Origin: Candidatus Rokubacteria bacterium 13_1_40CM_69_27
GTDB taxonomy: Bacteria; Methylomirabilota; Methylomirabilia; Rokubacteriales; CSP1-6
Direction of reading: 5' to 3'
Assembly (NCBI GenBank): GCA_001917535.1
Contig: MNEF01000087.1
Coordinates: 1,401-65,400, forward strand
Length of the DNA: 64,000 bases
Made by a program: the position numbers and the translations under genes. The notes below the pieces were generated by a model, which was not told where the DNA came from, ran no database searches, and was given only the letters and a program-made list of their open reading frames with translations. Within the stretch, counting starts at the first letter, position 1. Every line of letters begins with the position of its first letter. Shown here piece by piece: positions 42,705-63,373 of the stretch.

Positions 42705-42923
42705 GCCGGGACCTCTAGCGGACCTTGGGCAGGACCTCCCGCGCGTAGAACCGAGGGCGGTAACGACCAGGATCGCGCCGACGAGGTTGCGGGTTATGGC
42801 GCACCCCTGGATGATGAGATCCGGACAGTACGGCTAGCAAGACGCCTGCCACCGGGGGGTGTGGAAACTTTTTCCCACCTACTTTGGTCTTAGAGCCGAA
42901 TACCCTTTCGCGGAGCACTGTTA

Positions 42924-43319: not shown

Positions 43320-43322
43320 CCG

Positions 43323-43664: not shown

Positions 43665-43667
43665 GCC

Positions 43668-45827: not shown

Positions 45828-46228
45828 AGAAGGCGCCCCTGATTCTCCTGGTCGACGACTTCGAAGACAACCGGGAGATGTACGCCATGTTCCTGACGCA
45901 CTCCGGCTTCAAGGTCGCGGAAGCGGCCAATGGGCAGGAGGCGATCGAGCAGGCGTTCGAGCTGCTGCCGGACCTCATCGTGATGGACCTCTCGCTGCCG
46001 GGGCTCGACGGCTGGGAGGCCACGCGCCGCCTCAAGGGCGACGCGCGTACGCGTCACATTCCCGTGCTGGCGCTGACGAGCCACGCCCTTGAAGGCTTCT
46101 CGGAGGGGGCCAAGGAGGCCGGCTGTGACGGCTTCATCACCAAGCCCTGCCTGCCCGATGAGCTCATGGCGGAGATCCGCGGCATGCTCACCGTCGCCAA
46201 GAAATCCAAGTCGAAGAGCTCCACCTAG
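45824..46228 (+). CDS. response regulator receiver protein (CheY-like)
   Basis: ILLVDDFEDNREMY...DLIVMDLSLPGLDGWEA...ALTSHAL...GCDGFITKP; overlaps the HK stop. Confidence 0.85.
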   Translation: MKKAPLILLVDDFEDNREMYAMFLTHSGFKVAEAANGQEAIEQAFELLPDLIVMDLSLPGLDGWEATRRLKGDARTRHIPVLALTSHALEGFSEGAKEAGCDGFITKPCLPDELMAEIRGMLTVAKKSKSKSST

Positions 46229-46580
46229 CGCTTGAGGAGGTTATGCGGCTGGCCTGTTCGGAGAAAGACACGCGCGCCGATGAACGGCCCCGGCGCTGGG
46301 CTTCGGCAGCGGCCAAGCGAGGGCATGGCGGCGTCACCGCCTCGCATCGCGACTCACCTTCCGGGGTCCTTTCCGTCGGTGCTCGGACTGCGAGGCATTG
46401 ATTCCACACACCTTTTGAATGGTATGACCGTGTGGTCGGAATGGCATGACCATTCACGGTGGATATCTGTTGACAGTACGGGCGCGTGGCATGCTAGAGT
46501 GCCCGTCCTCGCGCGGCCTCGGCCACTGGAGTTGGACTAGAAGACGCAGGCGGAAACGAGAACGTGCTCGAGGAGGCCAT

Positions 46581-47480
46581 GTGAAAGGCAGGACGAAGCG
46601 GCAGGCCGGGCCCAAACCCGCGCGGGGACGGTCGGCCCCGGGCAAGACCGGCGACCTCGCGGCCAGCCGCGCCAAGCGGTCCAGCCGCCGGCCGCGGGCC
46701 GAGGCCAAGGGGGGGGCCGACAATCTCGGCAAGTACGTCTACTGCGTGGTCAGCGCCACCGAGCCGCTACGCTTCGGCGCCATCGGCATCGGGGCCAAGC
46801 CCGCCGAGGTCCAGACGGTCAACTACAAAGGCATCGCCGCGATCGTCTCCGACACCCCCCTCGAGGTGTACGACCCCACCCGCGAGAACGTCCTGGCCCA
46901 CGAGCGCGTGAACGAAACGGTCATGCGCACCCACACCGTCATCCCCATGTCGTTCGGCGCGGTGTTCAAGACGCGCGAGGACATCATCGAGCTGCTGCGG
47001 GGCGCCTACAACGCCTTTCACGACGTCCTCTCGAAGATGGAGGACAAGCTCGAGTTCGGGCTGAAGGTCCTCTGGGATCGCGACGTCATGATCCGCGAGA
47101 TCGAGCGGGAGGACGAGGACATCCGGCGGCTCAAGAACGAGATCGCGTCGCAGAAGGGCTCGACCTATTTCGCCCGCGTCCAGTACGGTCGCATGGCGGA
47201 CGCGGCGCTGCAGAACCTGGCCGACCGCTACGTCGCCGACATCTTCGCCCAGCTGCGCGACGTCTGCGTCGCCTCCCGGGCCAACAAGCCCATCGGCGAC
47301 AAGATGATCATGAACGCCGCCTTCCTGGTCGCCCGGAACCAGGAGGCCGCGTTCGACGCGCGCGTGAAGAAGATCGGCGCCCAGTACCACAAGCTCACGT
47401 TCAAGTACACCGGGCCCTGGCCGCCCTACAACTTCGTCAACATCCGGCTGAAGCTCGAGCGGGCCAAGGACGCCCAGTGA
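46581..47480 (+). CDS. gvpL: gas vesicle protein GvpL/GvpF family (paralog 1) with basic N-terminal extension
   Basis: GAGGAGG RBS plus GTG; GKYVYCVVSATEP...GPWPPYNFV motifs of GvpF/L. Confidence 0.8.
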   Translation: MKGRTKRQAGPKPARGRSAPGKTGDLAASRAKRSSRRPRAEAKGGADNLGKYVYCVVSATEPLRFGAIGIGAKPAEVQTVNYKGIAAIVSDTPLEVYDPTRENVLAHERVNETVMRTHTVIPMSFGAVFKTREDIIELLRGAYNAFHDVLSKMEDKLEFGLKVLWDRDVMIREIEREDEDIRRLKNEIASQKGSTYFARVQYGRMADAALQNLADRYVADIFAQLRDVCVASRANKPIGDKMIMNAAFLVARNQEAAFDARVKKIGAQYHKLTFKYTGPWPPYNFVNIRLKLERAKDAQ

Positions 47481-47761
47481 TCATCCTCGACTCCCTCCTG
47501 TTCGGCGGGCTCAAGTTCGTCCTGTCGAAGATCGCCCAGCTCGCCGATGCCGAGCTCAACGATGAGAGCGCGCTGCGCGAGGAGCTGCTGGCCGCCCAGA
47601 TGCGCCTCGAGCTGGGGGAGATGAGCGAGGAGGAGTTCGCGCAGTTCGAGCGCGAGATCCTGGCCCGGCTGCGCGAGATCCGCGCCCGTACGACGGGCGC
47701 CGGGCCCGGGGGGATGAAGGTCACGGGCGTGGAGGCCCGCGCCTGGGACGACGAGGAGTAG
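47477..47761 (+). CDS. gvpG: gas vesicle protein GvpG
   Basis: LFGGLKFVLSKIAQLADAELNDESALREELL...EEFAQFEREIL typical of GvpG; ATGA overlap with gvpL. Confidence 0.75.
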   Translation: MIILDSLLFGGLKFVLSKIAQLADAELNDESALREELLAAQMRLELGEMSEEEFAQFEREILARLREIRARTTGAGPGGMKVTGVEARAWDDEE

Positions 47762-47763
47762 CT

Positions 47764-49818
47764 CCGCACTACCGCTTCTTCGGTGGCAAGGGCGGCGTGG
47801 GCAAGACCACCTGCGCCGCCAGCGCCGCCGTCGCCGCCGCCGAGAGGGGCCACCGGGTGCTCCTGGTGTCGACCGACCCCGCGCATTCCCTGGGCGACGC
47901 CCTCCAGCGCCCGCTCTCCGCGCGCCCGCGCCGGATCCCCACCCGGCGGGGAGCGCTGGAGGCGGTGGAGCTCGACGCCGACCGCGCGCTCGACCGCTGG
48001 ATCGCCGCCCGCCGGCGCCTGCTCCGGACGATCCTCGAGCGGGGAACCTACCTCGACGAGGACGACATCGACCGCTTCCTGCGGCTGTCCTTCCCGGGCG
48101 TCGACGAGCTGATCGGCCTGGTGGAGCTGACGCGCCTGGCCCGCGCACGTCCCTGGGACGACGTGGTGGTGGACACGGCGCCCACCGGTCACACGCTGCG
48201 CCTGCTCGCGATGCCCGCCACGCTGGAGCGGATCGCCACCGTCCTCGACGACATGCAGGCCAAGCATCGCTTTCTCGCCCAGAGCCTCAGCGGCGTCCAC
48301 CGGCCGGACGCGACCGACGCCCTGATCGACGAGATCGCCACCGAGGGCCGGTCACTGCGGGCGCAGCTGAGCGACCCGGACCGCTGCACGTTTGTCTGGG
48401 TGCTCCTGCCCGAGCCGCTGGCGCTCGAGGAGGCCAAGGACGGGATCGGCGCGCTCGACCGGGCGGGCATCTCCGTGAGCGAGATCGTCGTCAACCGCGT
48501 GGTCCCAGCGCCCGACCAGCCCTGCGAGCTGTGCGACGGCCGGCGCCGGGCCGAGCAGGCGGCGATCGCGGCCGCGCGCGCGGCCTTTCCAGGGCGGCCA
48601 CTGACGCTACTTCCCGATCTCGCCGACGAGCCCCGCGGCGTCGCGGCGCTTCGTGGCGTCGGCCGCCATCTCGCCTCCTCGCCAGCCCGCGTCGAGACGC
48701 CTCGGGCGCGGGCTTCGCTCGCGCCATCGACTCCTATGGGAAGGTTCGGAGGGGGCCGTGAGGCCCGTTCCGACTATGGATCTCGGAAGGGGGGCGAAGC
48801 CCCCCTCCGAATCAAAACCGCCGCGGAAGCGGCATGGCTCGAGCGCATCGCGCCGCCGGGCGTGCGCCTCCTCCTCTTCGCCGGCAAGGGCGGCGTGGGC
48901 AAGACCACCTGCGCGGCGGCGGTGGCGCTCGCGCTGGCCGCGCGCGCGCCCCAGGCCGACATCTTGCTGCTCTCCACCGACCCCGCTCACTCTCTGGCCG
49001 ACGTGCTCGCGATCCCGGTCGGGGACGATCCGCATCCCGTCCCGGGCGCCCCGCGCCTCCGCGCGCGTGAGCTGGACGCCGACCGCGTGTTCGCCGCCAA
49101 GCGCGCCCGCTACTGCGAAGCGGTCGACGATCTGTTCGCGGCGCTGAGGGGCGGTTCGCGCTTCGACGTCGCCTTCGACCGCACCGTCGTCCAGGACCTC
49201 ATCGACCTGGCGCCGCCGGGCCTCGACGAGCTGTTCGGGATCCTCACGGTGATCGAGGCGCTGTTCCCCGAGCCCGGCGCCGGCCGGCGCTACGACACGG
49301 TCGTGCTCGATACCGCGCCCACGGGCCACGCGCTACGGCTCCTCGAGCTGCCGGATGCCGCGCTCGAATGGGTGCACGCGCTGCTGGAGATCCTCCTCAA
49401 ATACCGGAAGGTCATCGGCCTGGGCGAGCTGGGGATGGATCTCGTGACCGTCTCGCGCGACTTGAGGCGGCTGGGGGCGCTGCTCCGCGACCGGGTTGAA
49501 ACGGGACTGGTCGCCGTCACGCGCCCGGCGGAGCTGCCGCGTCTGGAGACCCTCCGTCTGCTCCGGCGGATCGGGCGGCTCCGGATTCCGCTCGCGGCCG
49601 TGCTGGTGAACGCCGTCACGCCGCCCGGCTGTGCCCGCTGCCGGACCATCAGTCGCCGCGAGGCGCGCCAGCTCACCGCGCTCCGACGGGAGTGCCGGTC
49701 GCCCGCCCGCGGTCGCTGCGGTATCATCGTGGCTCCGGCCGTGGCGCCGCCGGCGCGCGGCGCCGCGGCGCTCGCCCGCTGGCGCGCGCGCTGGGAGCTG
49801 GATGGTGAAACGGACTGA
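47764..49818 (+). CDS. tandem ArsA/GET3-type P-loop ATPase (two ArsA halves in one ORF)
   Basis: Two GKGGVGKTTCAA P-loops, two STDPAHSL motifs, DTAPTGHTLRLL signature (twice); the start is upstream of the ORF-track Met because the P-loop begins at about 47776; the linker contains a REP-like insertion. Confidence 0.75.
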   Translation, partial: PHYRFFGGKGGVGKTTCAASAAVAAAERGHRVLLVSTDPAHSLGDALQRPLSARPRRIPTRRGALEAVELDADRALDRWIAARRRLLRTILERGTYLDEDDIDRFLRLSFPGVDELIGLVELTRLARARPWDDVVVDTAPTGHTLRLLAMPATLERIATVLDDMQAKHRFLAQSLSGVHRPDATDALIDEIATEGRSLRAQLSDPDRCTFVWVLLPEPLALEEAKDGIGALDRAGISVSEIVVNRVVPAPDQPCELCDGRRRAEQAAIAAARAAFPGRPLTLLPDLADEPRGVAALRGVGRHLASSPARVETPRARASLAPSTPMGRFGGGREARSDYGSRKGGEAPLRIKTAAEAAWLERIAPPGVRLLLFAGKGGVGKTTCAAAVALALAARAPQADILLLSTDPAHSLADVLAIPVGDDPHPVPGAPRLRARELDADRVFAAKRARYCEAVDDLFAALRGGSRFDVAFDRTVVQDLIDLAPPGLDELFGILTVIEALFPEPGAGRRYDTVVLDTAPTGHALRLLELPDAALEWVHALLEILLKYRKVIGLGELGMDLVTVSRDLRRLGALLRDRVETGLVAVTRPAELPRLETLRLLRRIGRLRIPLAAVLVNAVTPPGCARCRTISRREARQLTALRRECRSPARGRCGIIVAPAVAPPARGAAALARWRARWELDGETD
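48745..48810. repeat. REP-like element (two hairpin modules) lying in-frame within the ArsA-like ATPase linker
   Basis: TTCGGAGGGGGCCGTGAGGCCCGTTCCGA ... TCGGAAGGGGGGCGAAGCCCCCCTCCGA translated as ...GRFGGGREARSDYGSRKGGEAPLRIK... between the two ArsA halves without a stop. Confidence 0.55.
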
Positions 49819-50596
49819 CACGACCGCCACCTACCTCTATTGCCTGGTGCACGGCAAGAAGTCTCCGTCTCTGGCCAGGCCGCCCCGGGGGCTTCCGGGC
49901 GCCGGCCCGGTGCGGCTGCTGGACGCGGGGGACGGCTTCTGGCTCGCCGTCGCCGACGCGCCCCTGGCGCGCTACGGCAGCGAGCCCATCGAGCGCGGCC
50001 TGCGCGACCTCAAGTGGGTGTCGGCGTGCGCGATGGCCCACGAGAGCGTCGTCGAGCACTTCGGCCGCGCGGGCACCGTCATCCCGATGAAGCTCTTCAC
50101 CCTGTTCTCGAGCGACGAGCGGGCCGCCACCCACGTGCGACGCGCGCGCAAGCGGCTCCTGCGCCTGATCACCCGCGTCATGGACCGCCAGGAGTGGGGC
50201 GTGCGGCTGAGCCTGGACGAGGCCCGCGGGCTCCGCGGTCTCGCCGCGCGCTCCCCGGGCGACGGCCGGCGCCTCGGCGCCGGCACGGGCTTCCTTGTCC
50301 GTAAGAAACAGGAACGCGACTCCGTCCGCCGGCTGGCCGAGCGGGCGCGCGCCGAAGCCGATCGCATCTTCGGCGCATTGGCCCGGCGCGCCGACGACGC
50401 GCGGCGCCAGACGCCGCCCCCGGGCGACGCCGGCATCCGCGTGCTCCTCGACGCCGCCTTCCTCGTGCGCGCCCGGCGCTCCCCTCAGTTCCGGGCGACC
50501 GCCCACGGCCTTGCCCGCCGCCTGGCCGGCGAGGGCTACGCCCTCACGCTGAGTGGTCCCTGGCCGCCCTACACCTTCGTGGCGGGGCCCGCGTGA
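49802..50596 (+). CDS. gvpF: gas vesicle protein GvpF/GvpL family (paralog 2)
   Basis: TYLYCLVHG...VIPMKLFTLF...GPWPPYTFV; ATG overlaps the ArsA-like stop. Confidence 0.75.
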   Translation: MVKRTDTTATYLYCLVHGKKSPSLARPPRGLPGAGPVRLLDAGDGFWLAVADAPLARYGSEPIERGLRDLKWVSACAMAHESVVEHFGRAGTVIPMKLFTLFSSDERAATHVRRARKRLLRLITRVMDRQEWGVRLSLDEARGLRGLAARSPGDGRRLGAGTGFLVRKKQERDSVRRLAERARAEADRIFGALARRADDARRQTPPPGDAGIRVLLDAAFLVRARRSPQFRATAHGLARRLAGEGYALTLSGPWPPYTFVAGPA

Positions 50597-50820
50597 AGCC
50601 CAAGGCGCGGCGCCGGCTCCGGAACGTCCTCGACGAGGCGGACGCGTCGCTGCTCGATCTCGTGGACCACGTGCTCAACAAGGGCGTCGTCATCGAGGGC
50701 GAGGTGCTGCTCGGCCTCGCCAACGTCGATCTCGTCTATCTCCGGTTGGCCGCCGTCCTCTGCGCCGCCGACCGCCTGGAGCGGACGAACGAAAGCCGGC
50801 GGCGGCGGGCGCGGTCGTGA
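50593..50820 (+). CDS. gvpS: small gas vesicle protein of the GvpA/J/S family
   Basis: LLDLVDHVLNKGVVIEGEVLLGLANVDLVYLRLAAVL matches the GvpA-family core; GTG start overlapping the upstream stop. Confidence 0.65.
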   Translation: MKPKARRRLRNVLDEADASLLDLVDHVLNKGVVIEGEVLLGLANVDLVYLRLAAVLCAADRLERTNESRRRRARS

Positions 50821-51503
50821 GCCGGCTCTACCTCTACGCGCTGCTGGGCGGGCCGCCCTCGGGGCCGCTGGGAGCCGGGCTCGCGGGCGAGCCCCTTCGC
50901 CTCGTACGTTGCGGCGATCTCCTGGCTGTCGCGGGCGACGTGCCGAAGGCGCCGTCCATCGACGCCGCGTCGCTGCGCGCCCACGACGCCACCGTGCGCC
51001 GGCTGGCCGAGATGGTCGAGGCCGTCCTCCCCATCCGCTTCTGCACGCTCGTCGACGATGAATCCGCGCTGGCCGGACTGCTGGAGCCGCAGCGCGCCGG
51101 GCTCGGTGAAGCCCTGGCCCTGGTCGCCGGGCGCGAGCAAATGACGCTCCGGCTCTACGGCGAGGGGCTGCACGACGACGCTCCCCTCCCCGATGCGGAG
51201 CCCTCCCTGCCCGGTCCGGGCGCGCGCTACCTCGCGGCCCGGCGGCGGGAGCGGCGGCGCGCGCACGGCAGCCGGGAGATGGCCGCGCTGCGGCGGGGGC
51301 TCGGGGCGCTGATCGTCGACGAGCGCGTCGAGCGCCACGACATGCCGCCGCTCCTGGCGAGCCTCTACCACCTGATCGAGCGCGGCGCCAGCGCCCGCTA
51401 TCTGAGCGCGCTGGAGACCATCGCCGGCGAGCTCGGCGCTGTCCGCGCCCGCGCCACCGGGCCCTGGCCGCCCTACGCCTTCGCGCCCGGAGCCATTCCG
51501 TGA
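50817..51503 (+). CDS. gas vesicle protein GvpF/GvpL family (paralog 3, short)
   Basis: LYLYALLG...GPWPPYAFAPG C-terminal signature; GTG start overlapping the gvpS stop. Confidence 0.65.
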   Translation: MSRLYLYALLGGPPSGPLGAGLAGEPLRLVRCGDLLAVAGDVPKAPSIDAASLRAHDATVRRLAEMVEAVLPIRFCTLVDDESALAGLLEPQRAGLGEALALVAGREQMTLRLYGEGLHDDAPLPDAEPSLPGPGARYLAARRRERRRAHGSREMAALRRGLGALIVDERVERHDMPPLLASLYHLIERGASARYLSALETIAGELGAVRARATGPWPPYAFAPGAIP

Positions 51504-51859
51504 AGCCGCGGCGGACGAGGCGCGCCGGCGTGGCGCTTCGCGTGCGGGAGCTGGAGGCGCTGCGGACCGAGCTGGAGCGGCGCGTGGCGGCGGAGACGCC
51601 ACGCTGGAACGCCGACCCCGAGGACGTCCAGCGCTCGGTCGCCAAGCTCGTCCTCACCCTCGTCGACTTCCTGCGCAAGCTCTTCGAGAAGCAGGCCATC
51701 CGGCGGATGGAAGCCGGCACGCTGACGCCCAAGGAGACGGAGGCGCTCGGCCTGGCGCTGATGCGGCTGGAGGAGACGATCCGCGACCTGGCCCGCCGCT
51801 TCGACCTGGCGCCGGAGGACCTGAAGCTCGACCTGGGCCCGCTCGGCCGGCTGTCCTGA
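51500..51859 (+). CDS. gvpK: gas vesicle protein GvpK
   Basis: VAKLVLTLVDFLRKLFEKQAIRRMEAGTLTPKETEALGLALMRLEE...LDLGPLG matches GvpK. Confidence 0.75.
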   Translation: MKPRRTRRAGVALRVRELEALRTELERRVAAETPRWNADPEDVQRSVAKLVLTLVDFLRKLFEKQAIRRMEAGTLTPKETEALGLALMRLEETIRDLARRFDLAPEDLKLDLGPLGRLS

Positions 51860-51880: not shown

Positions 51881-52024
51881 TCAGACGCGCGTCGGCCGCC
51901 CCTGCCAGTACGGCTCGCGCAGCACGCGCTTGACGAGCTTGCCCGCGGCGTCGCGCGGAAAGTCCTCGTGGAACGACACCTCGCGCGGCACCTTGTCGTC
52001 GGCGTGAGCGGCGATGAAATCCAT
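51881..52024 (-). pseudogene. C-terminal remnant of an AMP-dependent synthetase/ligase
   Basis: MDFIAAHADDKVPREVSFHEDFPRDAAGKLVKRVLRE is the conserved C-terminal tail of acyl-CoA synthetases; nothing upstream of it is coding. Confidence 0.4.
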
Positions 52025-52090
52025 GGAACCTCTGGGGCTTCCAGATAGTAGTACACTTGCGCAGGCATCCACCCTCGGAAGGAGACAAGC

Positions 52091-52645
52091 ATGCGAACGA
52101 CACGCGCGGTGGTTGGGGGTGCCCTGATCGGAGCCGTCCTGGCCCTGGTCCTGGCGGGCCCGGCACGGGCGCTCGAGGTGGGGCAGAAGGCGCCCGACTT
52201 CACGCTGCCCGCCCCCGGGGGGAAGCAGGTGAAGCTGGCCGATCTGCTCGGCAAGGGACCTGTCGTCATCTACACGCTGATTCAGGCCTTCACCCGCACC
52301 TGAACGGAGGAAATCAAGGGCTTCGAGGCGGCCCTGCCGCAGTTCGAGGCCCTCAACGCCCAGGTCGTGGGCGTCAGCGCGGATCACGTAGCCACGCTCG
52401 AGGCGTTCGTGAAGCAGAACGACATCAAGCAGCTCATGCTTTCCGATTTCCGTCGCCAGATGCTGCCCGCCTGGGACGCCCTGGTCACGGACGAGAAGAG
52501 CCCGATTTACCGCTACGCCAAGCGCGCCTACTTCATCCTCGACCGGAACGGGATGGTGAAGTACGTCAAGGTGATGAACAACCCGCTGGATCTCCTGAAG
52601 CCCGACGAGGTCATCAAGGCCGTCAAGGAGTCGGGCGCATCATGA
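52091..52645 (+). CDS. periplasmic peroxiredoxin (AhpC/TSA family) with in-frame TGA at the peroxidatic Cys position: candidate selenoprotein
   Basis: Signal peptide; single reading frame 52091-52645 interrupted only by TGA at 52301-52303; ...VVIYTLIQAFTRT-[TGA]-TEEIKGFEAALPQFEALNAQVVGVSAD aligns with the Prx motif ...FYPLDFTFVCPTEI... with TGA exactly at the Cys. Confidence 0.7.
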
Positions 52646-53175
52646 AGCGCGCGCTCGTCCTCGCGGTCGCCCTCGCGCTCGGCGCGGGGGCGGCCGCGGG
52701 GGGCGTTCCCGACTTCGCGAGCTTCGGGCTCCAGGCGTACGCCCCGCCCAAGCCGGCGCCGCCCTTCACGCTCGCCGACCTGGAGGGCAAGCCGCGGTCG
52801 CTGGCCGACCTCAAGGGCCAGGTCGTCCTCCTCTTCTTCTGGGCGACCTGGTGACCGGACTGCCGGGAGGAGTTGCCTTCCGTCAACAAGCTCTACGACG
52901 AGTTCAAAGGCAAGGGGCTCGAGGTCCTGCTCATCACCTTCCGTGAGGCTCCTGAGCGGGTGAGGCGGACCGTCCGGGAGCGCGGCTACACGGCGCCCGT
53001 CCTGGTCGATGAGAGCGGCGAGGTGACGGGGGTCAAGTACGGCGTGTTCGGTCCTCCGACGGTGTACATCGTCGACCGCGAGGGTCGTCTGCTCGCGCGC
53101 GGCGTGGGGCCGCGCGACTGGTCCACGCCGGCGGCCCGCGCGCTGCTCGAGGACCTCGTCCAGCCACGCCGGTAG
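52642..53175 (+). CDS. periplasmic TlpA/ResA-like thioredoxin-fold thiol:disulfide oxidoreductase with in-frame TGA replacing the first Cys of CxxC: candidate selenoprotein
   Basis: ATGA overlap with the prx stop; signal peptide; LKGQVVLLFFWATW-[TGA]-PDCREELPSVNKLYDEFKGKGLEVL aligns with ResA [23 protein letters not shown]...; the frame continues without another stop to 53175. Confidence 0.7.
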
Positions 53176-53176
53176 C

Positions 53177-53541
53177 CTAGAGCGCCAGCGCGTAGCCGTC
53201 GCGGCGGGGGTCGGCGCCGCCGTGCAGGGCGCCCGACTCCGGGTCGCGGATGATCCCTGGCCCCCGCCGACGATCCACGACCAGTCGTCGATCACGTTGA
53301 CCTGGTGGCCGCGGCGCCCCAGCTCGGCGCGCGCCTCGGGCGCGATCCGCGCCTCCACGTCGACCAGCCGGTCGCGGTAGACGCGCACCCGCGGCGCCTC
53401 GATCGCCTCCTGGATGTTCAGGCCGAACTCGAGGACGTTCAGGATCATCTGCGGCGTCGTCTGCAGTATTCCGTACGAGCCCGGCGTGCCGATCGACATG
53501 AAGAACTCGCCGTCGCGGAAGATCTGCGTGGGCGACATCAT
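53177..53541 (-). pseudogene. gamma-glutamyltranspeptidase C-terminal fragment with frameshift
   Basis: MMSPTQIFRDGEFFMSIGTPGSYGILQTTPQMILNVLEFGLNIQEAIEAPR (GGT small-subunit signature), then the alternate frame ends GIIRDPESGALHGGADPRRDGYALAL (GGT C-terminus); the N-terminal about 400 aa are absent. Confidence 0.5.
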
Positions 53542-53673
53542 GGTCCCGGCCTTCCGGCCGGGGGCCAGCCGATTCGGGCTCTCGGGATGGCATCGACGCC
53601 AGCGGGTGCGCGGAGGTCACCACCCCGCGCCGTCCCATCACGACCGGCCGGTAGGCGTCTCGATGCGGTGGTC

Positions 53674-55320
53674 TCATTCTCCGCTGCCCTCCCCGATCCG
53701 CCCTTCGATCCGGGCGGTCACCGTTCCCTGCTCCTGGACGGCGCGACCGACCGTCTCGGCGATCAGCTCGCGCGTCGTGCCGCTGCCGTTGTCGATCATC
53801 GTGTAGCCGTCGCCGCCGCGGTAGAGGAAGTCGCTGGTGACGGCAGTGTACTCGGTCTCGTCGGGCCGGAGCGGTCGGCCGTCGAGCAGCCTCACCGCGA
53901 CGACACGGCGGCCCGGGGGTCGCCGCGGGTCGAAGCGATAGGTGAAGCCGGAGATCTGGAGAAAGCGACCGGCGGCGTTGGTGAACCGCCCGTCCTCGAC
54001 GAGGCCGTGGGACAGGCCGTTCTCGAGCGCCGCCCACAGCCCCCGTCCGCTGATCCGGAAGGTGACGGCCAGGTTGTCGAAGGGGAAGATGGCGAAGAAG
54101 TCACCCCGTACGAGGTCGTAGGGCGGGCCGGCGACGTAGCCCGGCGCCGAGCGCCGCAGCCGCCGGTCGGCGGGCTGGTATCCGGAGGGCAGATCGTCCC
54201 GCAGCGCGCCGGACACGTCGAAGGCGAGCTGGGTTCCGTACGCCGCGCGGAGCACGTCGGTCTCGAAGTTGCCGAGGGGCGACTCGCGCTCACGGGAGCG
54301 CTCCAGCACCGCCGCCGCCACCCCGACCTTCCGGTCGAACAGCGGGCGGACCTGAGCCCGGTAGCCCTCGATCATGGCTTCTACGCGCGCGTCGGGGACG
54401 ATCCGGTCGGCCCAGGGACGCTTCTGGATCGCCGATTTCTGGACGACGGCCCGGCGCGCCCGGTCGTAGACGAGATCGATCACCGCGTACTCGGCGCCCC
54501 TGGACCGGTTCTCGACGACCAGCGCACCGCCGACCACGGCGTTGACGCTCACGTCGCTGTGGTCGCCGATCAGCACGTCGACGCCGCTGATGGCACGGGC
54601 CACCTCGGCGAGCGGGCCCCGGGGGGCGCCGCCGGGCCCGACCGCAGTGGCGCCGAGGTGGGCCAGGACGACCACGATGTGCGCGCCCTCTCCGCGCAGC
54701 CTCTCTGCGTGGGCATTGATCAGCGGGACCGGATCGAGGAATCGATAGTCGCCGGTGCGGCCGGGCGCCACCAGGGCCGGCGTCTCGGGGTTGCCGACGC
54801 CGATCACCGCGACCCGGAGACCGTTCAGGATGAAGACGTGGGTGGGAGGGGTGATCGTGCGTTCGTCGGGGCCGACGATGTTGGCGGCCACGTAGCGGAA
54901 GCGGGCGAGGCTCATCAGCTTGCGGAGCCGTTGCAGACCGTGGTCGAAGCTGTGATTGCCGAGCGTGTCGATGTCGAACCCCATCGCGTTCTGCGCCTCG
55001 ACGGCGGGCACATCCTCCAGAAGGCTCGCCAGCGGGGGCGTGGCGCCGAAGGCGTCGCCGGCGGTCACCACGATCGTGCCGCCGGGGTTCTCCCGTCGCT
55101 CGCGGTCGAAGTAGGCCGCCAGGACCGCCGCGCCTGCGACCGGGCGGGGAGCGCCGTCGACGGTCACGCTCAGCGGCTCGAGCTGGGCGTGCCAGTCGCT
55201 GACGGCCACGATCGTGACCCGCCCGCTGTGACCGCCGTCACCGATGGGCCGCGCGCATGCCGCCAGCAGCGTGACGGCGACGAGACCGGCCAAGCCCCCC
55301 GCCAGCCCCCGACGGTGCAT
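53674..55320 (-). CDS. bifunctional metallophosphatase/5'-nucleotidase (UshA-like) lipoprotein
   Basis: Lipobox LLAACA; calcineurin-like metallophosphatase motifs (VSDWH, GNHSFD) and 5'-nucleotidase C-domain. Confidence 0.85.
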   Translation of the reverse strand: MHRRGLAGGLAGLVAVTLLAACARPIGDGGHSGRVTIVAVSDWHAQLEPLSVTVDGAPRPVAGAAVLAAYFDRERRENPGGTIVVTAGDAFGATPPLASLLEDVPAVEAQNAMGFDIDTLGNHSFDHGLQRLRKLMSLARFRYVAANIVGPDERTITPPTHVFILNGLRVAVIGVGNPETPALVAPGRTGDYRFLDPVPLINAHAERLRGEGAHIVVVLAHLGATAVGPGGAPRGPLAEVARAISGVDVLIGDHSDVSVNAVVGGALVVENRSRGAEYAVIDLVYDRARRAVVQKSAIQKRPWADRIVPDARVEAMIEGYRAQVRPLFDRKVGVAAAVLERSRERESPLGNFETDVLRAAYGTQLAFDVSGALRDDLPSGYQPADRRLRRSAPGYVAGPPYDLVRGDFFAIFPFDNLAVTFRISGRGLWAALENGLSHGLVEDGRFTNAAGRFLQISGFTYRFDPRRPPGRRVVAVRLLDGRPLRPDETEYTAVTSDFLYRGGDGYTMIDNGSGTTRELIAETVGRAVQEQGTVTARIEGRIGEGSGE

Positions 55321-55336
55321 CGGGCGCCTAGCTGGG

Positions 55337-55445
55337 TCGGAGGGGGCGGACGTTACGGCCCCCTCCGAGATCCATAGTCAGAGAGGGCCTCGCGGCCCCC
55401 TCTGAAACTCCCCAAAGGGATTGCGCCGGCAGAGCCGGCGCTCGA
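55337..55445. repeat. composite REP-like element (two module-A hairpins plus module B)
   Basis: TCGGAGGGGGCGGACGTTACGGCCCCCTCCGA ... GAGGGCCTCGCGGCCCCCTC ... GGGATTGCGCCGGCAGAGCCGGCGCTCG. Confidence 0.6.
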
Positions 55446-55488
55446 AATGGCGAGTCGAAGTGAGCGGGTGCCATTCGCCGACAGGCGT

Positions 55489-55704
55489 CTACAGGCGCGG
55501 CCGGATGTCGCCGGCAAAGGCCGCCAGCACCCGCTCGACCTCCTCCAGGCTCTTCGGCAGCAGCGCGGGCGGCAGCCCGTAGACGATGTGGTCGCCCACC
55601 CACACGGAGTCGTAGCCCAGCGCTTCCGCGCGGCGGGCCAGCGCGAGCGTGCCCTCGCCGGAGGCGAGCGGGCCGAAGTGCGGGAGCTGGACGCCGAACT
55701 TCAC
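55489..55704 (-). pseudogene. N-terminal fragment of an LLM-class (luciferase-like) flavin/F420-dependent oxidoreductase
   Basis: MKFGVQLPHFGPLASGEGTLALARRAEALGYDSVWVGDHIVY is a canonical LLM N-terminus but the ORF stops after 71 aa. Confidence 0.45.
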
Positions 55705-55711
55705 GCGACGG

Positions 55712-56593
55712 TCAGGCGGGCGGAAGGAACAGCGCCCACGTCGCGCGCAGCGTCCACATCGAGAGCAGGAAGCCGCCGGCCAGCGCCAGGCTCACCCCGC
55801 TGACGACGCTCACGCGGTGCTGGAGGGCCAGGGCGTCGGTGCCGGCTCGCCCGGCGCGCCCCGCCGCGAGCGTGCCCGCCACCGCCAGCGGCACCATGAG
55901 CCCGAGGCCGTACGCCATCAGCGTGACGGCGCCGAGCCAGGCGCTCTGCTGCGCCGCCACCCAGCCGATGACGAGCGCGTAGGCCGACAGCGGGCTGAAG
56001 ATCGCCATCGTCGCGCCGAACCCGAGCGCGATCGCCAGCGCCCGCCGCGTCAGACTGCCGGTGGGAGCTCCTTCCGCCGGGGCCGTGGTCAGGCGGGGGA
56101 GCAGCGGGCGCGCCAGCCCCAGCTCGCCGAGCGCGATCGCCAGCGCCAGCAGGCCCAGCCCCGAGAGGGTAACGGAGGCGATCGCTTCGCGCGCCCAGGG
56201 CGTCGTCACCTTGGCGGCCATGGCGGAGCCCGCCCAGGCCATCGCCGCGCCGAACACGCCCAGCACCGCCAGCAGGGCGCCCGTGAACAGACCGAGCACC
56301 GCCATCCACCGCCGTCTCGTCTTCGCCTCCTGAACCAGGGGCGCGATCGTGAAGATCATCGGCGTCCATCAGGGGACGCAGATGCGCGGCACCCCCATGA
56401 CGAAGGCGAGCAGCACGGCGGTCGACGCGCCCACCAGCGGCGCGCCCGGATCGGTGAAGAGCGCGATGAACCCTTTGTACATGCCGCTGAACATGGGCCA
56501 GTTCCAGGCGTAGCCCAGTAGCCCGCCCGTCAGCGTGGCGACCACGAACAACGTCAGACGAGAACGCATGGGAGCCTCCCTGAAGGGCAGCAT
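55712..56593 (-). CDS. ccdA: CcdA/DsbD-family transmembrane thiol-disulfide electron transporter with in-frame TGA in TM1 (C-V-P-[TGA]): candidate selenoprotein
   Basis: Two ORF-track pieces (55712-56359 and 56369-56593) are in the same frame, separated only by TGA at 56369-56371; ...AVLLAFVMGVPRICVP-[TGA]-WTPMIFTIAPLV... resembles the CcdA TM1 motif LSPCVLPL. Confidence 0.6.
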
Positions 56594-56724
56594 ACTCCAC
56601 TCACGCCGAGGAGCGAACGGCCCGACCTAGCGGCCTGTCCGCGAATAGCGCGATCTCACTCTCGGCCACTGCTCGCCGTTTCGAGCGCCGGCGTAGCCGG
56701 CGCGATCCTTTCCTGGGGGAGGCT

Positions 56725-56753
56725 TCGGAGGGGGCCGTAACGTCCGCCCCCTG
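56725..56753. repeat. REP-like palindromic element (degenerate)
   Basis: TCGGAGGGGGCCGTAACGTCCGCCCCCTG. Confidence 0.45.
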
Positions 56754-56785
56754 ACGGTTCATCGCACCGGGCATCGGGCGTCTCC

Positions 56786-57520
56786 TTAGAAATGGGCTCG
56801 GGCGGCCCAGACAGCATACAGCGGGTCGCCCTCGGCCGGCGTGTGCGCGTACTCGTTGAGCTCGCTCCAGCCCTCCCCGACACCGCCGGAGGCGGCGAAG
56901 TAGGCAGTCACGATCGCCCCGTGCTGATCGTCGCTCGCCGCGCGCCAGAGCGCGACGGCCTTCTCGGGAAAGCAGCGGTTGCTGAACGACACGACGAAAG
57001 GCGCCCCCCGCTTGAGCGTCCGGCGCACCTCCTGGAAGACCTCCACCGGCTGGGTGAGGTACTGCACCGAGACCGCGCACAGCGCGGCGTCGAAGGCGCC
57101 GTCGTTGAATGGCAGCTTCGGCTCCCGGTTGAGATCGTGAACGACGGCCTGGGCGAGCTGCGGGTTCTCGCGCATCTCGTCCCGGTTCAGCCCGACGCCG
57201 ATCAGCGTGCCCGCGAACGAGGCCGGCAGGTGGCTGCGCCAGGACGACATCAGGTCGAGCACGCAGCCGCGCGGCGGCGCCAGGGCCTCGTAGAGCCGCA
57301 TCAGTACGGCGATGGCGCCACTGTCCAGGTGCACCACGCGCCGGGGCCAGGCGTAGAAGAGGCGATCGTCCTCTTCGTTCTCGCGCCGGAAGGCGCCGGG
57401 CGGGAAGGCGATGGGCAGCTTAGCGGCCTTGCCAGTCGGGCTTGCGCTTGGCGAGAAAGGCGCGGACGCCCTCCTGGAAATCCTGACTGAGGTAGCAGGA
57501 GAGGATGATGTCCTCGGCAT
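56786..57520 (-). CDS. class I SAM-dependent methyltransferase
   Basis: VLDLMSSW...LIGVGLN...FDAALCAVSVQYL...LKRGAPFVVS Rossmann-fold MTase pattern; the start is uncertain because the ORF overlaps the crotonase gene 3' end. Confidence 0.55.
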   Translation of the reverse strand: MPRTSSSPATSVRISRRASAPFSPSASPTGKAAKLPIAFPPGAFRRENEEDDRLFYAWPRRVVHLDSGAIAVLMRLYEALAPPRGCVLDLMSSWRSHLPASFAGTLIGVGLNRDEMRENPQLAQAVVHDLNREPKLPFNDGAFDAALCAVSVQYLTQPVEVFQEVRRTLKRGAPFVVSFSNRCFPEKAVALWRAASDDQHGAIVTAYFAASGGVGEGWSELNEYAHTPAEGDPLYAVWAARAHF

Positions 57521-61743: not shown

Positions 61744-61786
61744 GCACTGGGCGCGGCAGGGAGCCACGAAGGAATAGGAGGGGTCT

Positions 61787-63373
61787 ATGACGAGGCAACG
61801 GCTCTTTCTGGTGGCGGTCATCCCTGTCCTGATCTCGGCGTCTGCGGCCCTGCTGGCCTGGGGCGAGCTGATCGACAGAACCCAGGCTCCCAACGCCTTG
61901 AACGAGGGCATCAACAAGTCGCTCGAGCAGCAGATCGGCGAGGGGCGGGGCAACATCTATACCCCGTCCTCCTCGGCGTTCATCATCACTCGCGACCCGT
62001 TCCGCGCGATTCGCCGCGGCCGGCAGATCTTCCAGCGCAAGTTCACCCGCGCCCAGGGTCAGGGCCCGAACGTCGGCGATGGGCGCGGCGACATCAACAC
62101 GGTCCTCACGATCGGCGCCGGCCTGGCCGACAGCTGCGCCGGATGCCACGGACGCCCGCGCGGCTCGGCGGGCTTCGGGGGCGACGTGGCCACCCGGCCG
62201 GACAGCCGGGACGCACCGCACCTGTTCGGGCTCGGGCTGAAGGAGATGCTGGCCGACGAGATCACGACCGATCTCCGGTCAATCCGCCAGCAGGCCCTCG
62301 ACGAGGCGCGCGCTCGCGGGCGCTCGGTCACAAGACGGTTGGTCAGCAAAGGCATCGGGTACGGCTCGATCACCATGAATCCGGACGGGTCCGTCAATAC
62401 GTCACGGGTTGAGGGTGTCGATCCCGATCTCCGCGTCCGTCCGTTGTTCGCCCACGGCGGCGAGTTCTCCATCCGGGCCTTTGCCGTCGGCGCCTTCCAG
62501 GCCGAGATGGGGCTCCAGGCCTTCGACCCCGACCTTGTGACCGCGAGCCGGGGCGGCCGGGTGATCACCCCGTCCGGGATGGTGCTCGACGGGACTCTCG
62601 ACAGAATCGATCCGCCACCGGCCACCAGCGAAGGCGATGACGGGGATCGCGACGGGGTACGGAACGAGATCCCGGTCAGCCTGGTCGACTTCATGGAGTT
62701 CTACTTGCTGAACTACTTCAAGGCCGGGATCTCCGAGCAGACGACCGCCACCCAGAACGGCCGCAAGCTCTTCGAGCGGATCGGCTGCGCGAGCTGCCAC
62801 ATTCCAGACTTGCCCATCGATCGCGACCGGCGCGTCGCCGACGTGGAGACTGTCTTCGACCCCGAGCAGGGAATCTTCAACCGGCTCTTCGCCACGGCGG
62901 CTCCGCTCCATCGGGTCGTCGATGACCGCAGAGGATACCCGCCGCTGAAGCCGCCCCTCCTGGGGCCGTTCGTGGTCGAAAACATCTTCACCGACCTCAA
63001 GCGCCATGACCTCGGCCCGAACTTCCACGAGCGCAACTACGACGGATCGACTCAGAAGAAGTTCATGACCACGCCCCTGTGGGGCGTCGGCAGCACGGCG
63101 CCCTACGGTCACGACGGGCGCAGCATCAATCTCCGGGAGGTCATCCTCCGCCACGGCGGAGAGGCCCAATCGGCGCGGAATGCCTTCGCCGCGCTCTCGG
63201 CCCTCAACCAGGGGGACGTGATCGACTTTCTGAACTCCCTCGTCATCTTTCCGCCGGACGACACGGCCTCGAACCTGGACCCGGGGAATCCGGCCGCGCC
63301 GGGCTTTCCGCAGGTCGGCCACGGCAGCATCAAGCTGGGCGCCCTGTTCAACGATCCGACCGATCGCGAGTAG
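61787..63373 (+). CDS. DUF1111 family di-heme cytochrome c (putative thiol oxidoreductase/peroxidase)
   Basis: Two CxxCH haem-binding motifs (CAGCHG, CASCHI), N-terminal TM/signal anchor, about 528 aa, typical of DUF1111. Confidence 0.75.
   Translation: MTRQRLFLVAVIPVLISASAALLAWGELIDRTQAPNALNEGINKSLEQQIGEGRGNIYTPSSSAFIITRDPFRAIRRGRQIFQRKFTRAQGQGPNVGDGRGDINTVLTIGAGLADSCAGCHGRPRGSAGFGGDVATRPDSRDAPHLFGLGLKEMLADEITTDLRSIRQQALDEARARGRSVTRRLVSKGIGYGSITMNPDGSVNTSRVEGVDPDLRVRPLFAHGGEFSIRAFAVGAFQAEMGLQAFDPDLVTASRGGRVITPSGMVLDGTLDRIDPPPATSEGDDGDRDGVRNEIPVSLVDFMEFYLLNYFKAGISEQTTATQNGRKLFERIGCASCHIPDLPIDRDRRVADVETVFDPEQGIFNRLFATAAPLHRVVDDRRGYPPLKPPLLGPFVVENIFTDLKRHDLGPNFHERNYDGSTQKKFMTTPLWGVGSTAPYGHDGRSINLREVILRHGGEAQSARNAFAALSALNQGDVIDFLNSLVIFPPDDTASNLDPGNPAAPGFPQVGHGSIKLGALFNDPTDRE

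What the first reader, a model, noticed from the sequence alone, without database searches (positions are those of the whole stretch)
52091..56593. Cluster of three candidate selenoproteins forming an extracytoplasmic thiol-redox relay (CcdA, TlpA-like, peroxiredoxin)
Three thiol-redox genes within 4.5 kb each have one in-frame TGA at or beside the redox-active Cys: a periplasmic Prx, a periplasmic TlpA/ResA-like Trx-fold protein, and a CcdA/DsbD-family membrane electron conduit. Random pseudogenisation would not hit the catalytic residue three times, so UGA is most likely decoded as selenocysteine. Functionally the three proteins make a plausible chain: cytoplasmic reductant, then CcdA(C..U), then TlpA(UxxC), then Prx(U), then peroxide. 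I am not aware of an all-selenium periplasmic peroxidase relay of this kind being described, and a CcdA-family protein with a CxxU arrangement in TM1 would be unusual.
Basis: partly seen in the sequence, partly recalled or inferred. Interest (0 to 1): 0.85.

Follow-up and report, generated by a model that had tools for sequence, protein, structure and literature searches.

The report
Three-selenoprotein envelope redox gene cluster
A soil Rokubacteria (Methylomirabilota) genome carries three genuine selenocysteine-encoding thiol-redox genes side by side (an exported peroxiredoxin, an exported thioredoxin-like protein and a CcdA-type membrane protein), and the membrane one appears to be a selenoprotein family that is not in current inventories.

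Summary
Each of the three genes has one in-frame TGA exactly at the catalytic Cys position: Prx 52301-52303, TlpA-like 52852-52854, CcdA-like 56371-56369 on the minus strand. The TGA is kept in every related locus I could fetch: 22/22, 12/12 and 12/12. Protein sequence is conserved on both sides, Cys sits at that position in homologues, and a hairpin follows each TGA. TGA is also an ordinary stop in the same genes, so this is selenocysteine recoding, not decay and not an alternative genetic code.

Prx and TlpA-like belong to selenoprotein families that are already known. The CcdA-like protein is the new part. Its Sec replaces the TM1 Cys of CcdA. The second essential Cys, in TM4, is Ser, and a new Cys sits three residues before Sec, giving CxxU. 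It matches no NCBIfam model. It is absent from a May 2026 list of 119 families, and it is called as a truncated ORF in all 99 database hits.

A relay (CcdA-like, then TlpA, then Prx) is plausible. It has a known all-Cys analogue in Caulobacter (ScsB-TlpA-PprX). It remains inferred: adjacency holds in only some lineages, a 5'-nucleotidase gene always lies between the units, and distant Cys homologues sit in copper operons.

The parts
52091..52645 (+). Exported 1-Sec peroxiredoxin (PrxQ/BCP-like). It has a signal peptide ending ...ARA|LEVG, and Sec is its only redox residue: there is no Cys at all.
   Evidence: Pfam AhpC-TSA 6e-29. The best solved relatives are BCP/PrxQ 2ywn and 2cx3, and U aligns with their peroxidatic Cys. 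The gene is split into two ORFs by every gene caller in related loci.
52301..52303 (+). Sec (UGA) codon of the Prx gene, in the motif FT(R/P)T-U-T.
   Evidence: TGA in the window and in 11 of 11 related loci. A true Cys form also exists (P0179, FAALCTAE).
52318..52353 (+). Hairpin downstream of the Prx UGA; candidate SECIS. It is the least canonical of the three.
   Evidence: MFE z = -2.6. 91.7% of cells are paired across 6 distinct sequences, with one compensatory C-G to U-A pair. The apical loop (CCU, GCU or ACU) does not consistently have G at position 1 or 2.
52642..53175 (+). Exported or membrane-anchored TlpA/ResA-like thioredoxin-fold protein with a W-U-x-x-C active site. Its ATG overlaps the Prx stop codon (ATGA).
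   Evidence: Pfam AhpC-TSA, Redoxin and Thioredoxin_8. NCBIfam ResA and TlpA hits are below their cutoffs. U aligns with the N-terminal Cys of WCxxC in 3kcm and ResA 4nmu.
52852..52854 (+). Sec (UGA) codon of the TlpA-like gene.
   Evidence: TGA in the window and in 11 of 11 related loci.
52864..52882 (+). Hairpin CGGGAGG-AGUUG-CCUUCCG, starting 9 nt after the UGA; candidate SECIS.
   Evidence: Folded. It is conserved in all orthologues, with only G-C to G-U changes, and the loop AGUU(G/A) has G at position 2.
53674..55320 (-). 5'-nucleotidase/UshA-like metallophosphoesterase lipoprotein (lipobox LLAAC). It has no redox Cys. It is the constant downstream neighbour of the CcdA-like gene, and its role in the module is unknown.
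   Evidence: NCBIfam 5'-nucleotidase-type hits, all below their cutoffs. It follows the CcdA-like gene in L001, L005, L007, L009, L010, L014-L018, L020, L022 and L024.
55712..56569 (-). CcdA/DsbD_TM-family membrane selenoprotein. It has an extra N-terminal TM helix, CVPU in TM1, and Ser in place of the TM4 Cys. The likely start is ATG 56569, with AGGGAGG upstream; the ATG at 56593 is an upstream alternative.
   Evidence: Pfam DsbD_TM 30.9 bits. The family profile hits CcdA 5VKV at E = 2e-4, with the Sec column on the TM1 Cys. The TM4 Cys column is Ser. Orthologues start at MR....
56369..56371 (-). Sec (UGA) codon of the CcdA-like gene.
   Evidence: TGA in 22 of 22 Rokubacteria loci and in three distant family members. 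Cys occupies this position in full-length homologues P0109, P0112, P0115 and others.
56324..56343 (-). Hairpin CGCCCCUG-GUU-CAGG(A)GGCG, 25 nt after the UGA; candidate SECIS.
   Evidence: 98.8% of cells are paired, with compensatory G:C to C:G at the closing pair in distant members. Synonymous-codon identity is 0.84-0.97 in codons -16 to +15, against about 0.6 elsewhere in the gene.

Best explanation
The three genes are real selenoprotein genes of a Rokubacteria/Methylomirabilota genome. Each UGA is recoded to selenocysteine with the help of a hairpin just downstream.

The exported Prx has Sec as its only redox residue. After reacting with peroxide it needs an outside reductant. The translationally coupled TlpA-like protein (UxxC) is the obvious candidate.

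The oxidised TlpA-like protein would in turn be re-reduced by the CcdA-family membrane protein. That protein carries electrons from cytoplasmic thioredoxin across the membrane. Here it would use a Cys-x-x-Sec pair at the break of the first core helix, instead of the usual Cys pair contributed by TM1 and TM4.

Together this is a selenium version of the known membrane transporter, then TlpA, then periplasmic peroxiredoxin pathway.

What is shown:
- the recoding signature;
- the Sec-for-Cys correspondences;
- the altered Cys pattern of the membrane protein;
- the conserved gene neighbourhood in several lineages.

What is inferred:
- the direction and partners of electron flow;
- peroxide as the substrate;
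- any role of the 5'-nucleotidase-like lipoprotein encoded between the two units.
For: Recoding:
- TGA is conserved 22/22, 12/12 and 12/12, with conserved protein on both sides.
- Cys sits at that position in homologues.
- Hairpins follow each TGA, with compensatory changes and suppressed synonymous change.
- TGA is also used as a stop in the same operon.
- The phylum is reported to be rich in selenoproteins (PMC13188914; PMC13582414).

Relay:
- Prx has no Cys, TlpA has only UxxC, and the CcdA-like protein has only CxxU.
- The Prx stop overlaps the TlpA start, both in the window and in L001.
- The order CcdA(U), 5'NT, then TlpA(U) and Prx(U) on the opposite strand recurs in L001, L005, L007, L009, L014, L015, L017 and L020. 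The outer flanks differ between these loci.
- The all-Cys pathway ScsB, TlpA, PprX is experimentally established in Caulobacter (PMC3322552).
- Distant homologues sit next to other thiol-redox partners: AhpD/CMD-like and Thioredoxin_3.
Against: - The second Cys that is essential in CcdA/DsbD (TM4) is absent. The canonical mechanism therefore cannot apply unchanged.
- Adjacency is not universal. Three Prx-seeded contigs have Prx(U)-TlpA(U) with no CcdA-like gene within 6 kb. L002/L003 and L004 have the CcdA-like gene alone.
- The loci that do show the linkage come from one phylum, and several are close relatives.
- The Cys homologues of the membrane protein lie in csoR-copZ-X-copA and HMA contexts. 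That could point to metal handling.
- The Prx lacks the universal Pro of PxxxTxxC, which is Ile here.
- No Sec machinery could be examined.
- There is no biochemical evidence of any kind.
Confidence: 0.55

Rival explanations
1. All three are real selenoproteins, but the CcdA-like protein is a soft-metal (Cu(I), Hg(II), Ag(I)) or chalcogen handling membrane protein. It would use CxxU as a ligand pair, in the way that MerT-like and P-type-ATPase selenoproteins do, and would not be the reductant of the TlpA-like protein. Its closeness to Prx-TlpA would then be lineage-specific gene order.
For: - The full-length Cys homologue P0109 lies in csoR-copZ(HMA)-X-copA. P0125 lies next to an HMA gene. P0112 follows an ArsR-type repressor.
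- The canonical TM4 Cys is lost.
- CxxC-type pairs on one helix are typical metal sites.
- Metal-transport selenoproteins (MerT-like C/SxxU, SO_0444 UxC, E1-E2 ATPase UxxC) are in the known list.
- Prx-TlpA pairs exist without this gene nearby.
Against: - Copper operons also recruit true DsbD-type electron transporters. Scs is an example (PMC10907172, listed), so a metal context does not exclude redox function.
- The Rokubacteria loci carry no HMA, CsoR or CopA genes. They carry TlpA, Prx and a 5'-nucleotidase instead.
- The only solved relative found by profile search is the electron transporter CcdA.
Confidence: 0.2
2. The three selenoproteins are each functional but do not form one pathway. 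Prx-TlpA is a self-contained operon fed by some other reductant. CcdA-like plus 5'-nucleotidase is a second, unrelated unit that happens to lie convergent to it in some Rokubacteria.
For: - The two units are on opposite strands.
- In the window they are separated by gene remnants and dispersed repeats.
- Each unit is found without the other.
- The tightest link of the CcdA-like gene is to the 5'-nucleotidase gene. The gap is 37-106 nt, and database protein P0098 reads through from the CcdA-like gene into the 5'-nucleotidase start.
Against: - A periplasmic UxxC thioredoxin-fold protein needs a membrane reductant, and a CcdA-family protein is the standard one.
- The four-gene arrangement persists across lineages whose CcdA-like proteins are 66-78% identical and whose outer flanks differ.
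- All partners share the unusual use of Sec.
Confidence: 0.2
3. The TGAs are not decoded as Sec. The genes would be pseudogenes or carry sequencing errors, or TGA would be read as Trp or Gly under another genetic code.
For: - Other genes near the cluster are clearly decayed: the GGT, LLM and AMP-binding remnants.
- Some database entries show W or G at the Sec position (P0170, P0177, P0175).
Against: - The identical TGA occurs in 12-22 independent assemblies, with purifying selection on both sides.
- TGA terminates the Prx and 5'-nucleotidase genes themselves, and roughly half of the confident ORFs in the window.
- The W and G entries are best explained by gene callers run with code 4 or code 25.
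Confidence: 0.02

Closest known systems
Caulobacter crescentus ScsB, TlpA, PprX envelope peroxide-reduction pathway (Cho et al. 2012, PMC3322552)
   Same: It has the same three roles: a DsbD-superfamily membrane electron transporter, a periplasmic TlpA-type thioredoxin-fold protein and a periplasmic peroxiredoxin.
   Different: - It uses only Cys.
- ScsB is a large three-domain DsbD-type protein with periplasmic alpha and gamma domains. The protein here is a bare CcdA-like core with one extra helix.
- The pathway here is inferred, not shown.
- Here a 5'-nucleotidase gene is part of the neighbourhood.
CcdA (Thermus thermophilus 5VKV; Bacillus CcdA-ResA)
   Same: It shares the DsbD_TM fold. The catalytic residue lies at the break of TM1 in a P-C/U-x-x-P motif, and the partner is a TlpA/ResA-type protein.
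   Different: - Sec replaces the TM1 Cys.
- The TM4 Cys is Ser.
- There is a new Cys at -3, giving CxxU.
- There is an extra N-terminal TM helix followed by a periplasmic helix.
- Profile similarity is only E = 2e-4.
Sec-containing peroxiredoxin (PrxU of Eubacterium acidaminophilum) and the Prx selenoprotein family (TxxU), as listed in PMC13188914
   Same: It is an AhpC/TSA fold with Sec at the peroxidatic position in a TxxU motif.
   Different: - NCBIfam PrxU scores 37 bits against a cutoff of 270, so this is not that equivalog.
- The protein here is exported and is of the 1-Sec PrxQ/BCP type.
- The universal Pro at -7 is Ile.
Prx-like thiol:disulfide oxidoreductase and thiol-disulfide isomerase-like (cd02966) UxxC selenoproteins (PMC13188914, Table 1)
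   Same: These are TlpA/ResA-like folds with UxxC replacing CxxC.
   Different: Family assignment below the fold level was not tested. The protein is not the WAxxUGC family (60 bits against a cutoff of 300).
TsoB rhodanese/DsbD-fusion selenoprotein (NF045694, UxxxxU), MerT-like selenoprotein (C/SxxU) and SO_0444 transporter (UxC)
   Same: These are membrane proteins with Sec in or near a transmembrane segment. TsoB contains a DsbD-like part and sits in a three-selenoprotein operon.
   Different: The window protein gives no NCBIfam hit at E <= 0.01, so it matches none of these models. It also has a different motif, no rhodanese domain and different partners.

Membership tests
Bacterial selenoprotein gene (SelB/SECIS-dependent UGA recoding) | In-frame UGA aligned with Cys in homologues | tested here: met
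   - CcdA-like: Cys in P0109, P0112, P0115 and others, and in CcdA 5VKV.
- Prx: the peroxidatic Cys of 2ywn and 2cx3, and of P0179.
- TlpA: the first Cys of WCxxC in 3kcm and ResA.
Bacterial selenoprotein gene (SelB/SECIS-dependent UGA recoding) | UGA conserved in orthologues, with coding conservation on both sides | tested here: met
   22/22, 12/12 and 12/12 loci. Amino-acid identity is 0.56-1.0 on both sides of the UGA.
Bacterial selenoprotein gene (SelB/SECIS-dependent UGA recoding) | Stem-loop within about 16-37 nt downstream of the UGA, with G at the first or second apical-loop position | tested here: inconclusive
   - CcdA-like: met. Loop GUN, compensatory pairs and suppressed synonymous change.
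- TlpA: met. Loop AGUUR.
- Prx: a strong hairpin with one compensatory pair, but loop CCU, GCU or ACU.
- No bSECISearch run was available, and there were no Rfam hits.
Bacterial selenoprotein gene (SelB/SECIS-dependent UGA recoding) | selA, selB, selC (tRNA-Sec) and selD in the same genome | not testable with these tools
   None is present in the 64-kb window or in the fetched flanks. The genome itself is not available. Only the literature shows Sec use in Methylomirabilota (PMC13188914, PMC13582414).
Peroxiredoxin (AhpC/TSA, PrxQ/BCP-like) | AhpC-TSA domain above Pfam's cutoff | tested here: met
   100.8 bits against a cutoff of 26.
Peroxiredoxin (AhpC/TSA, PrxQ/BCP-like) | Active-site PxxxTxxC(U) motif and the conserved Arg | tested here: inconclusive
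   TxxU and the Arg (AKRAYFILD) are present and aligned. The Pro at -7 is Ile here and in all orthologues.
TlpA/ResA-type periplasmic thioredoxin-fold reductase | Thioredoxin fold with W-C-x-x-C, a cis-Pro loop, and an N-terminal signal or anchor | tested here: met
   The motif is W-U-P-D-C. GPPTVY aligns with the cis-Pro loop of 3kcm and ResA. The N-terminus is hydrophobic. NCBIfam ResA (95 bits, cutoff 170) and TlpA (76 bits, cutoff 230) are below their cutoffs, so this is fold-level membership only.
CcdA/DsbD_TM transmembrane electron transporter | DsbD_TM domain and fold | tested here: met
CcdA/DsbD_TM transmembrane electron transporter | Essential Cys in TM1 (P-C-x-x-P) | tested here: met
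   The position is occupied by Sec (V-P-U-W-T-P).
CcdA/DsbD_TM transmembrane electron transporter | Second essential Cys in TM4, forming the cross-helix disulfide | tested here: not met
   The column that holds Cys in GxGCPxPTY of the homologues and in T-P-C of 5VKV is Ser (FSPLSAY) in the window and in all Rokubacteria members. A Cys at -3 from Sec is the only other Cys in the protein.
CcdA/DsbD_TM transmembrane electron transporter | Thioredoxin-dependent electron transfer to a periplasmic partner | not testable with these tools
   This needs biochemistry or genetics.
Envelope peroxide-reduction pathway of the ScsB-TlpA-PprX type | Genes for a membrane transporter, a periplasmic Trx-like protein and a periplasmic Prx, functionally linked | tested here: inconclusive
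   All three roles are encoded, and they are adjacent in the window and in at least 8 loci. They are separable in others. The functional link is untested.

The most novel reading that the evidence does not exclude
The CcdA-like gene defines an undescribed family of membrane-embedded selenoproteins. In it the catalytic TM1 Cys of a transmembrane electron transporter has become Sec.

Three states exist:
- C...C, in the distant homologues;
- U...C, in L026 and L028;
- CxxU...S, in the window, the Rokubacteria loci and L027.

In the Rokubacteria form the resolving Cys has moved from TM4 to the same helix. Transmembrane electron transfer would then run through a single-helix selenenylsulfide. This form would feed an all-selenium periplasmic relay: CxxU, then UxxC, then U, then peroxide.
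Probability: 0.4. Interest if true: 0.75.

Novelty: new variant of a known kind. Interest (0 to 1): 0.6.

Why it matters
If the reading holds, it matters in four ways.

First, it adds a membrane electron transporter to the list of proteins that use selenocysteine. It gives a natural series for asking what Sec buys over Cys in a thiol-exchange relay: C...C, U...C and CxxU...S.

Second, a CcdA-type protein that works without the TM4 Cys would challenge the current two-helix alternating-access picture of how these proteins move electrons across the membrane.

Third, there is a practical annotation point. All 99 database relatives of the membrane protein, and more than 100 relatives of the Prx, are annotated as truncated or split ORFs. 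Selenoproteome counts for Methylomirabilota, and the annotation of these genes, are therefore wrong in public databases.

Fourth, it points to heavy investment in selenium-based defence of the cell envelope in an abundant, uncultured soil phylum.

Tried and rejected
Things that led nowhere:
The translation contains a stop, and U-to-C edited sequences are not accepted. I modelled a Cys homologue instead.
- Rfam has no match to any SECIS family, at gathering or at relaxed thresholds.
- A tRNA-Sec search of the window and 12 loci found nothing.
- Pfam scans of 40 window ORFs found no selA, selB or selD.
I therefore could not test directly whether any source annotates the protein as a selenoprotein.
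- Two papers could not be read: Haft et al. 2025 (PMC12013261) and Deng et al. 2026. Prior description of the membrane family in those papers is therefore not excluded.

Things considered and rejected:
- The in-frame TGA at 43317-43319 is not another Sec site. It simply separates two GvpA genes.
- The roughly 115-nt inverted repeats flanking the CcdA-like gene are not module-specific. They are copies of a dispersed repeat.
- The 5'-nucleotidase is not a member of the UshA-like selenoprotein families (39 bits against a cutoff of 275).
- Synonymous-site analysis was uninformative for Prx and TlpA, because most available orthologues are too closely related.


Full report
**What is there**

Reading and translating 51.5-57.2 kb confirms three genes, each interrupted by a single in-frame TGA.

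- Gene 1 (52091-52645, +) is an AhpC/TSA peroxiredoxin (Pfam E = 6e-29). It has a cleavable signal peptide and the motif FTRT-U-TEE. The TGA is at 52301-52303.
- Gene 2 (52642-53175, +) is a TlpA/ResA-like thioredoxin-fold protein with the motif WATW-U-PDC. The TGA is at 52852-52854. Its ATG overlaps the Prx stop codon (ATGA).
- Gene 3 (minus strand, 56569-55712) matches the DsbD_TM domain of CcdA/DsbD (30.9 bits against a cutoff of 27.1). Its motif is RICVP-U-WTP, with the TGA at 56371-56369. An upstream ATG lies at 56593, but orthologues and a Shine-Dalgarno AGGGAGG favour 56569.

Each protein carries the bare minimum of redox residues. Prx has Sec only. TlpA has UxxC only. The membrane protein has CxxU only.

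**Is the TGA selenocysteine?**

Homology search with the membrane protein returned 99 relatives. All are about 210 aa long and start just after the TGA. Gene callers everywhere had therefore been stopped by the same codon.

I fetched DNA for 21 related loci from Rokubacteria/Methylomirabilota assemblies and metagenomes.

- The TGA of the membrane gene is present in 22 of 22 sequences, in an invariant RICVP-U-WTPMIF context.
- The TGAs of Prx and TlpA are present in 12 of 12 each.
- Protein sequence is conserved on both sides of each TGA.

The TGA positions correspond to Cys in homologues.

- Prx: the peroxidatic Cys of BCP/PrxQ structures 2ywn and 2cx3, and of a 58%-identical Cys orthologue, P0179.
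- TlpA: the first Cys of WCxxC in 3kcm and ResA.
- Membrane protein: the TM1 Cys of Thermus CcdA 5VKV and of full-length family members.

TGA is also the ordinary stop of the Prx and 5'-nucleotidase genes and of many other ORFs in the window. A reassigned genetic code is therefore excluded.

**Downstream RNA structure**

Each TGA is followed by a hairpin.

For the membrane gene, the 50 nt after the UGA are almost invariant across proteins that are only 66-78% identical. Identical amino acids use the same codon 84-97% of the time in codons -16 to +15, against about 60% elsewhere in the gene. The hairpin CGCCCCUG-GUN-CAGG(A)GGCG lies 25 nt after the UGA. It is kept in three distant family members, with a compensatory G:C to C:G change at the closing pair. 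98.8% of cells are paired.

The TlpA hairpin (CGGGAGG-AGUUR-CCUYCCG, 9 nt after the UGA) varies only by G-C to G-U.

The Prx hairpin is long and stable (z = -2.6). It has one compensatory pair. Its apical loop lacks the consensus G in several sequences, so I call it the least canonical of the three.

The G-in-loop criterion is taken from PMC13582414. Rfam has no matching family.

**What could not be checked**

The window and the fetched flanks contain no selA, selB, selD or tRNA-Sec. The source genome is not available to me.

Two papers show that the phylum uses Sec. One reports a Methylomirabilota MAG predicted to have 63 selenoprotein genes (PMC13188914). The other reports Sec-type group 4 hydrogenases in this phylum (PMC13582414).

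**The membrane protein is the unusual part**

A profile search of 1.84 billion representatives found only 68 family members. Reading their genes and upstream DNA gives three states.

- C...C. Distant full-length members have VPC in TM1 and GxGCPxPTY in TM4. This is the classical CcdA pattern.
- U...C. L026 and L028 have TGA at the TM1 position and keep the TM4 Cys.
- CxxU...S. The window, all Rokubacteria members and L027 have Sec at the TM1 position and a new Cys three residues earlier. Ser occupies the TM4 Cys column.

The AlphaFold model of the Cys homologue P0109 (pLDDT 87) places the catalytic residue at the start of the second half of a broken helix. The -3 position lies at the end of the first half. 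A Cys-Sec bond across the break is therefore geometrically reasonable. This last point is my inference from the secondary-structure output, not a measured distance.

The protein gives no NCBIfam hit at all. It is not among the 119 prokaryotic selenoprotein families tabulated in May 2026. The nearest entries there are the TsoB rhodanese/DsbD fusion, the MerT-like protein and the SO_0444 transporter.

**Gene neighbourhood**

The order CcdA-like(U), 5'-nucleotidase-like lipoprotein, then TlpA(U) and Prx(U) on the other strand is found in the window and in L001, L005, L007, L009, L014, L015, L017 and L020. Partial contigs are consistent with it (L010, L016, L018, L022, L024), and the outer flanks differ between loci.

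It is the most constant neighbour of the membrane gene, and its role is unexplained. It has an intact metallophosphoesterase site, a lipobox and no redox Cys. It is not one of the known UshA-like selenoprotein families.

The linkage is not universal. L002/L003 and L004 have the membrane gene alone. Three contigs found by starting from the Prx have the Prx(U)-TlpA(U) operon without the membrane gene within 6 kb. The stable units are therefore Prx-TlpA and CcdA-like-5'NT. Their juxtaposition is frequent but optional.

**Mechanism**

The best-supported reading is a selenium version of the known envelope peroxide pathway.

1. Prx-Se(-) reduces peroxide.
2. The resulting selenenic acid is resolved by the Sec of the TlpA-like protein.
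3. The UxxC selenenylsulfide of TlpA is reduced by the CxxU pair of the membrane protein.
4. The membrane protein is recharged by cytoplasmic thioredoxin.

The all-Cys counterpart (ScsB, TlpA, PprX) is experimentally established in Caulobacter (PMC3322552). I give this relay about 0.55, and the recoding itself more than 0.95.

The main rival, at about 0.2, is that the membrane protein handles soft metals.

- Its Cys homologues sit in csoR-copZ-X-copA, next to HMA genes, or behind an ArsR-type repressor.
- However, copper operons also recruit true DsbD-type reductases such as Scs.
- Other distant homologues sit next to AhpD/CMD-like or small thioredoxin genes.

A second rival, at about 0.2, is that the two units are functionally independent.

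**Novelty and score**

Sec-Prx and Sec-TlpA-like proteins are known families. The relay logic is known in its Cys form. Clusters of selenoprotein genes are known.

What appears new is the following:

- a CcdA-type membrane selenoprotein;
- its relocated resolving Cys;
- a neighbourhood in which every redox partner uses Sec.

I could not read two recent papers that might already list the family.

I rate this as a new variant of a known kind, with interest 0.6.

Noticed in passing
window 53674-55320 (-); L001 10748-12280; for the other loci: A 5'-nucleotidase/UshA-like lipoprotein gene follows the CcdA-like selenoprotein gene in nearly every locus. In one database entry (P0098) the CcdA-like reading frame runs on into it. 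In two Prx-seeded contigs (L036, L037) a different secreted phosphoesterase (Pfam Phosphodiest) lies 0.1-1 kb downstream of the TlpA-like gene. I have no explanation.
   Followed up: partly
window 53177-53660 (-): A remnant of a gamma-glutamyltranspeptidase gene lies between the TlpA-like and 5'-nucleotidase genes. [quoted passage not shown] It is absent from L001.
   Followed up: partly
window 55489-55704 (-); compare L004 from about 10850 onwards: A 71-aa luciferase-like monooxygenase remnant lies between the CcdA-like and 5'-nucleotidase genes. It consists of an N-terminal and a C-terminal piece joined together. L004 has the full-length gene in the same position after its CcdA-like gene.
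   Followed up: partly
window 51881-52027 (-): A short ORF that reads like the C-terminal end of an acyl-CoA synthetase (AMP-binding enzyme) sits just upstream of the Prx gene. It looks like another gene remnant. Pfam gave no hit.
   Followed up: no
window 55339-55454 and 56672-56754 (inverted); also 18927-18954, 12387-12411, 29734-29758, 36604-36628: A dispersed intergenic repeat of about 115 nt, built from G+C-rich palindromic modules, flanks the CcdA-like gene in inverted orientation and recurs elsewhere in the window. It looks like a REP- or MITE-like element. It may explain the local rearrangements and the gene remnants.
   Followed up: partly
window 42894-51859 (+): A gas-vesicle gene cluster lies directly upstream of the Prx gene. 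It contains two GvpA-type genes, a PAS histidine kinase, three GvpL/F genes, an ArsA-like ATPase and GvpK. This is notable for a soil Rokubacteria genome.
   Followed up: partly
proteins P0170, P0177, P0175: Database 'full-length' relatives of the Prx show W or G exactly at the Sec position. The most likely cause is that the contigs were gene-called with genetic code 4 or code 25. Such entries hide selenoproteins as apparent Trp or Gly variants.
   Followed up: no
L029 537-2501; L031 1105-2318; L035 391-1866: Cys-type members of the same DsbD_TM subfamily lie in three contexts: csoR-copZ-X-copA, next to an HMA gene, or behind an ArsR-type repressor and in front of a small Thioredoxin_3 gene. 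This suggests metal-regulated roles for the wider family.
   Followed up: partly
window 52280-52303 and orthologues: The Pro of the universal peroxiredoxin PxxxTxxC motif is Ile in this Sec-Prx clade (IQAFT.TU).
   Followed up: no
L002 10644-11030: In a locus where the CcdA-like selenoprotein gene stands alone, it is followed by a 128-aa Cys-rich ORF (MADAGVIFTCMGCCCGQ...) and a methyltransferase gene. A methyltransferase gene also neighbours the CcdA-like gene in the window (56786-57520). Homology between the two methyltransferases was not checked.
   Followed up: no
window 61778-63373 (+): A di-haem oxidoreductase/putative peroxidase (Pfam DHOR) gene lies 5 kb from the cluster. It is another candidate envelope peroxide enzyme.
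   Followed up: no
window 52357-52373 (+): A second hairpin, CGCCCA-GGUCG-UGGGCG, with an fdhF-like GGUC loop, lies 56 nt after the Prx UGA. It is too far downstream for the usual SECIS spacing, and it overlaps the conserved NAQVVGV coding motif. It was read by eye only.
   Followed up: no
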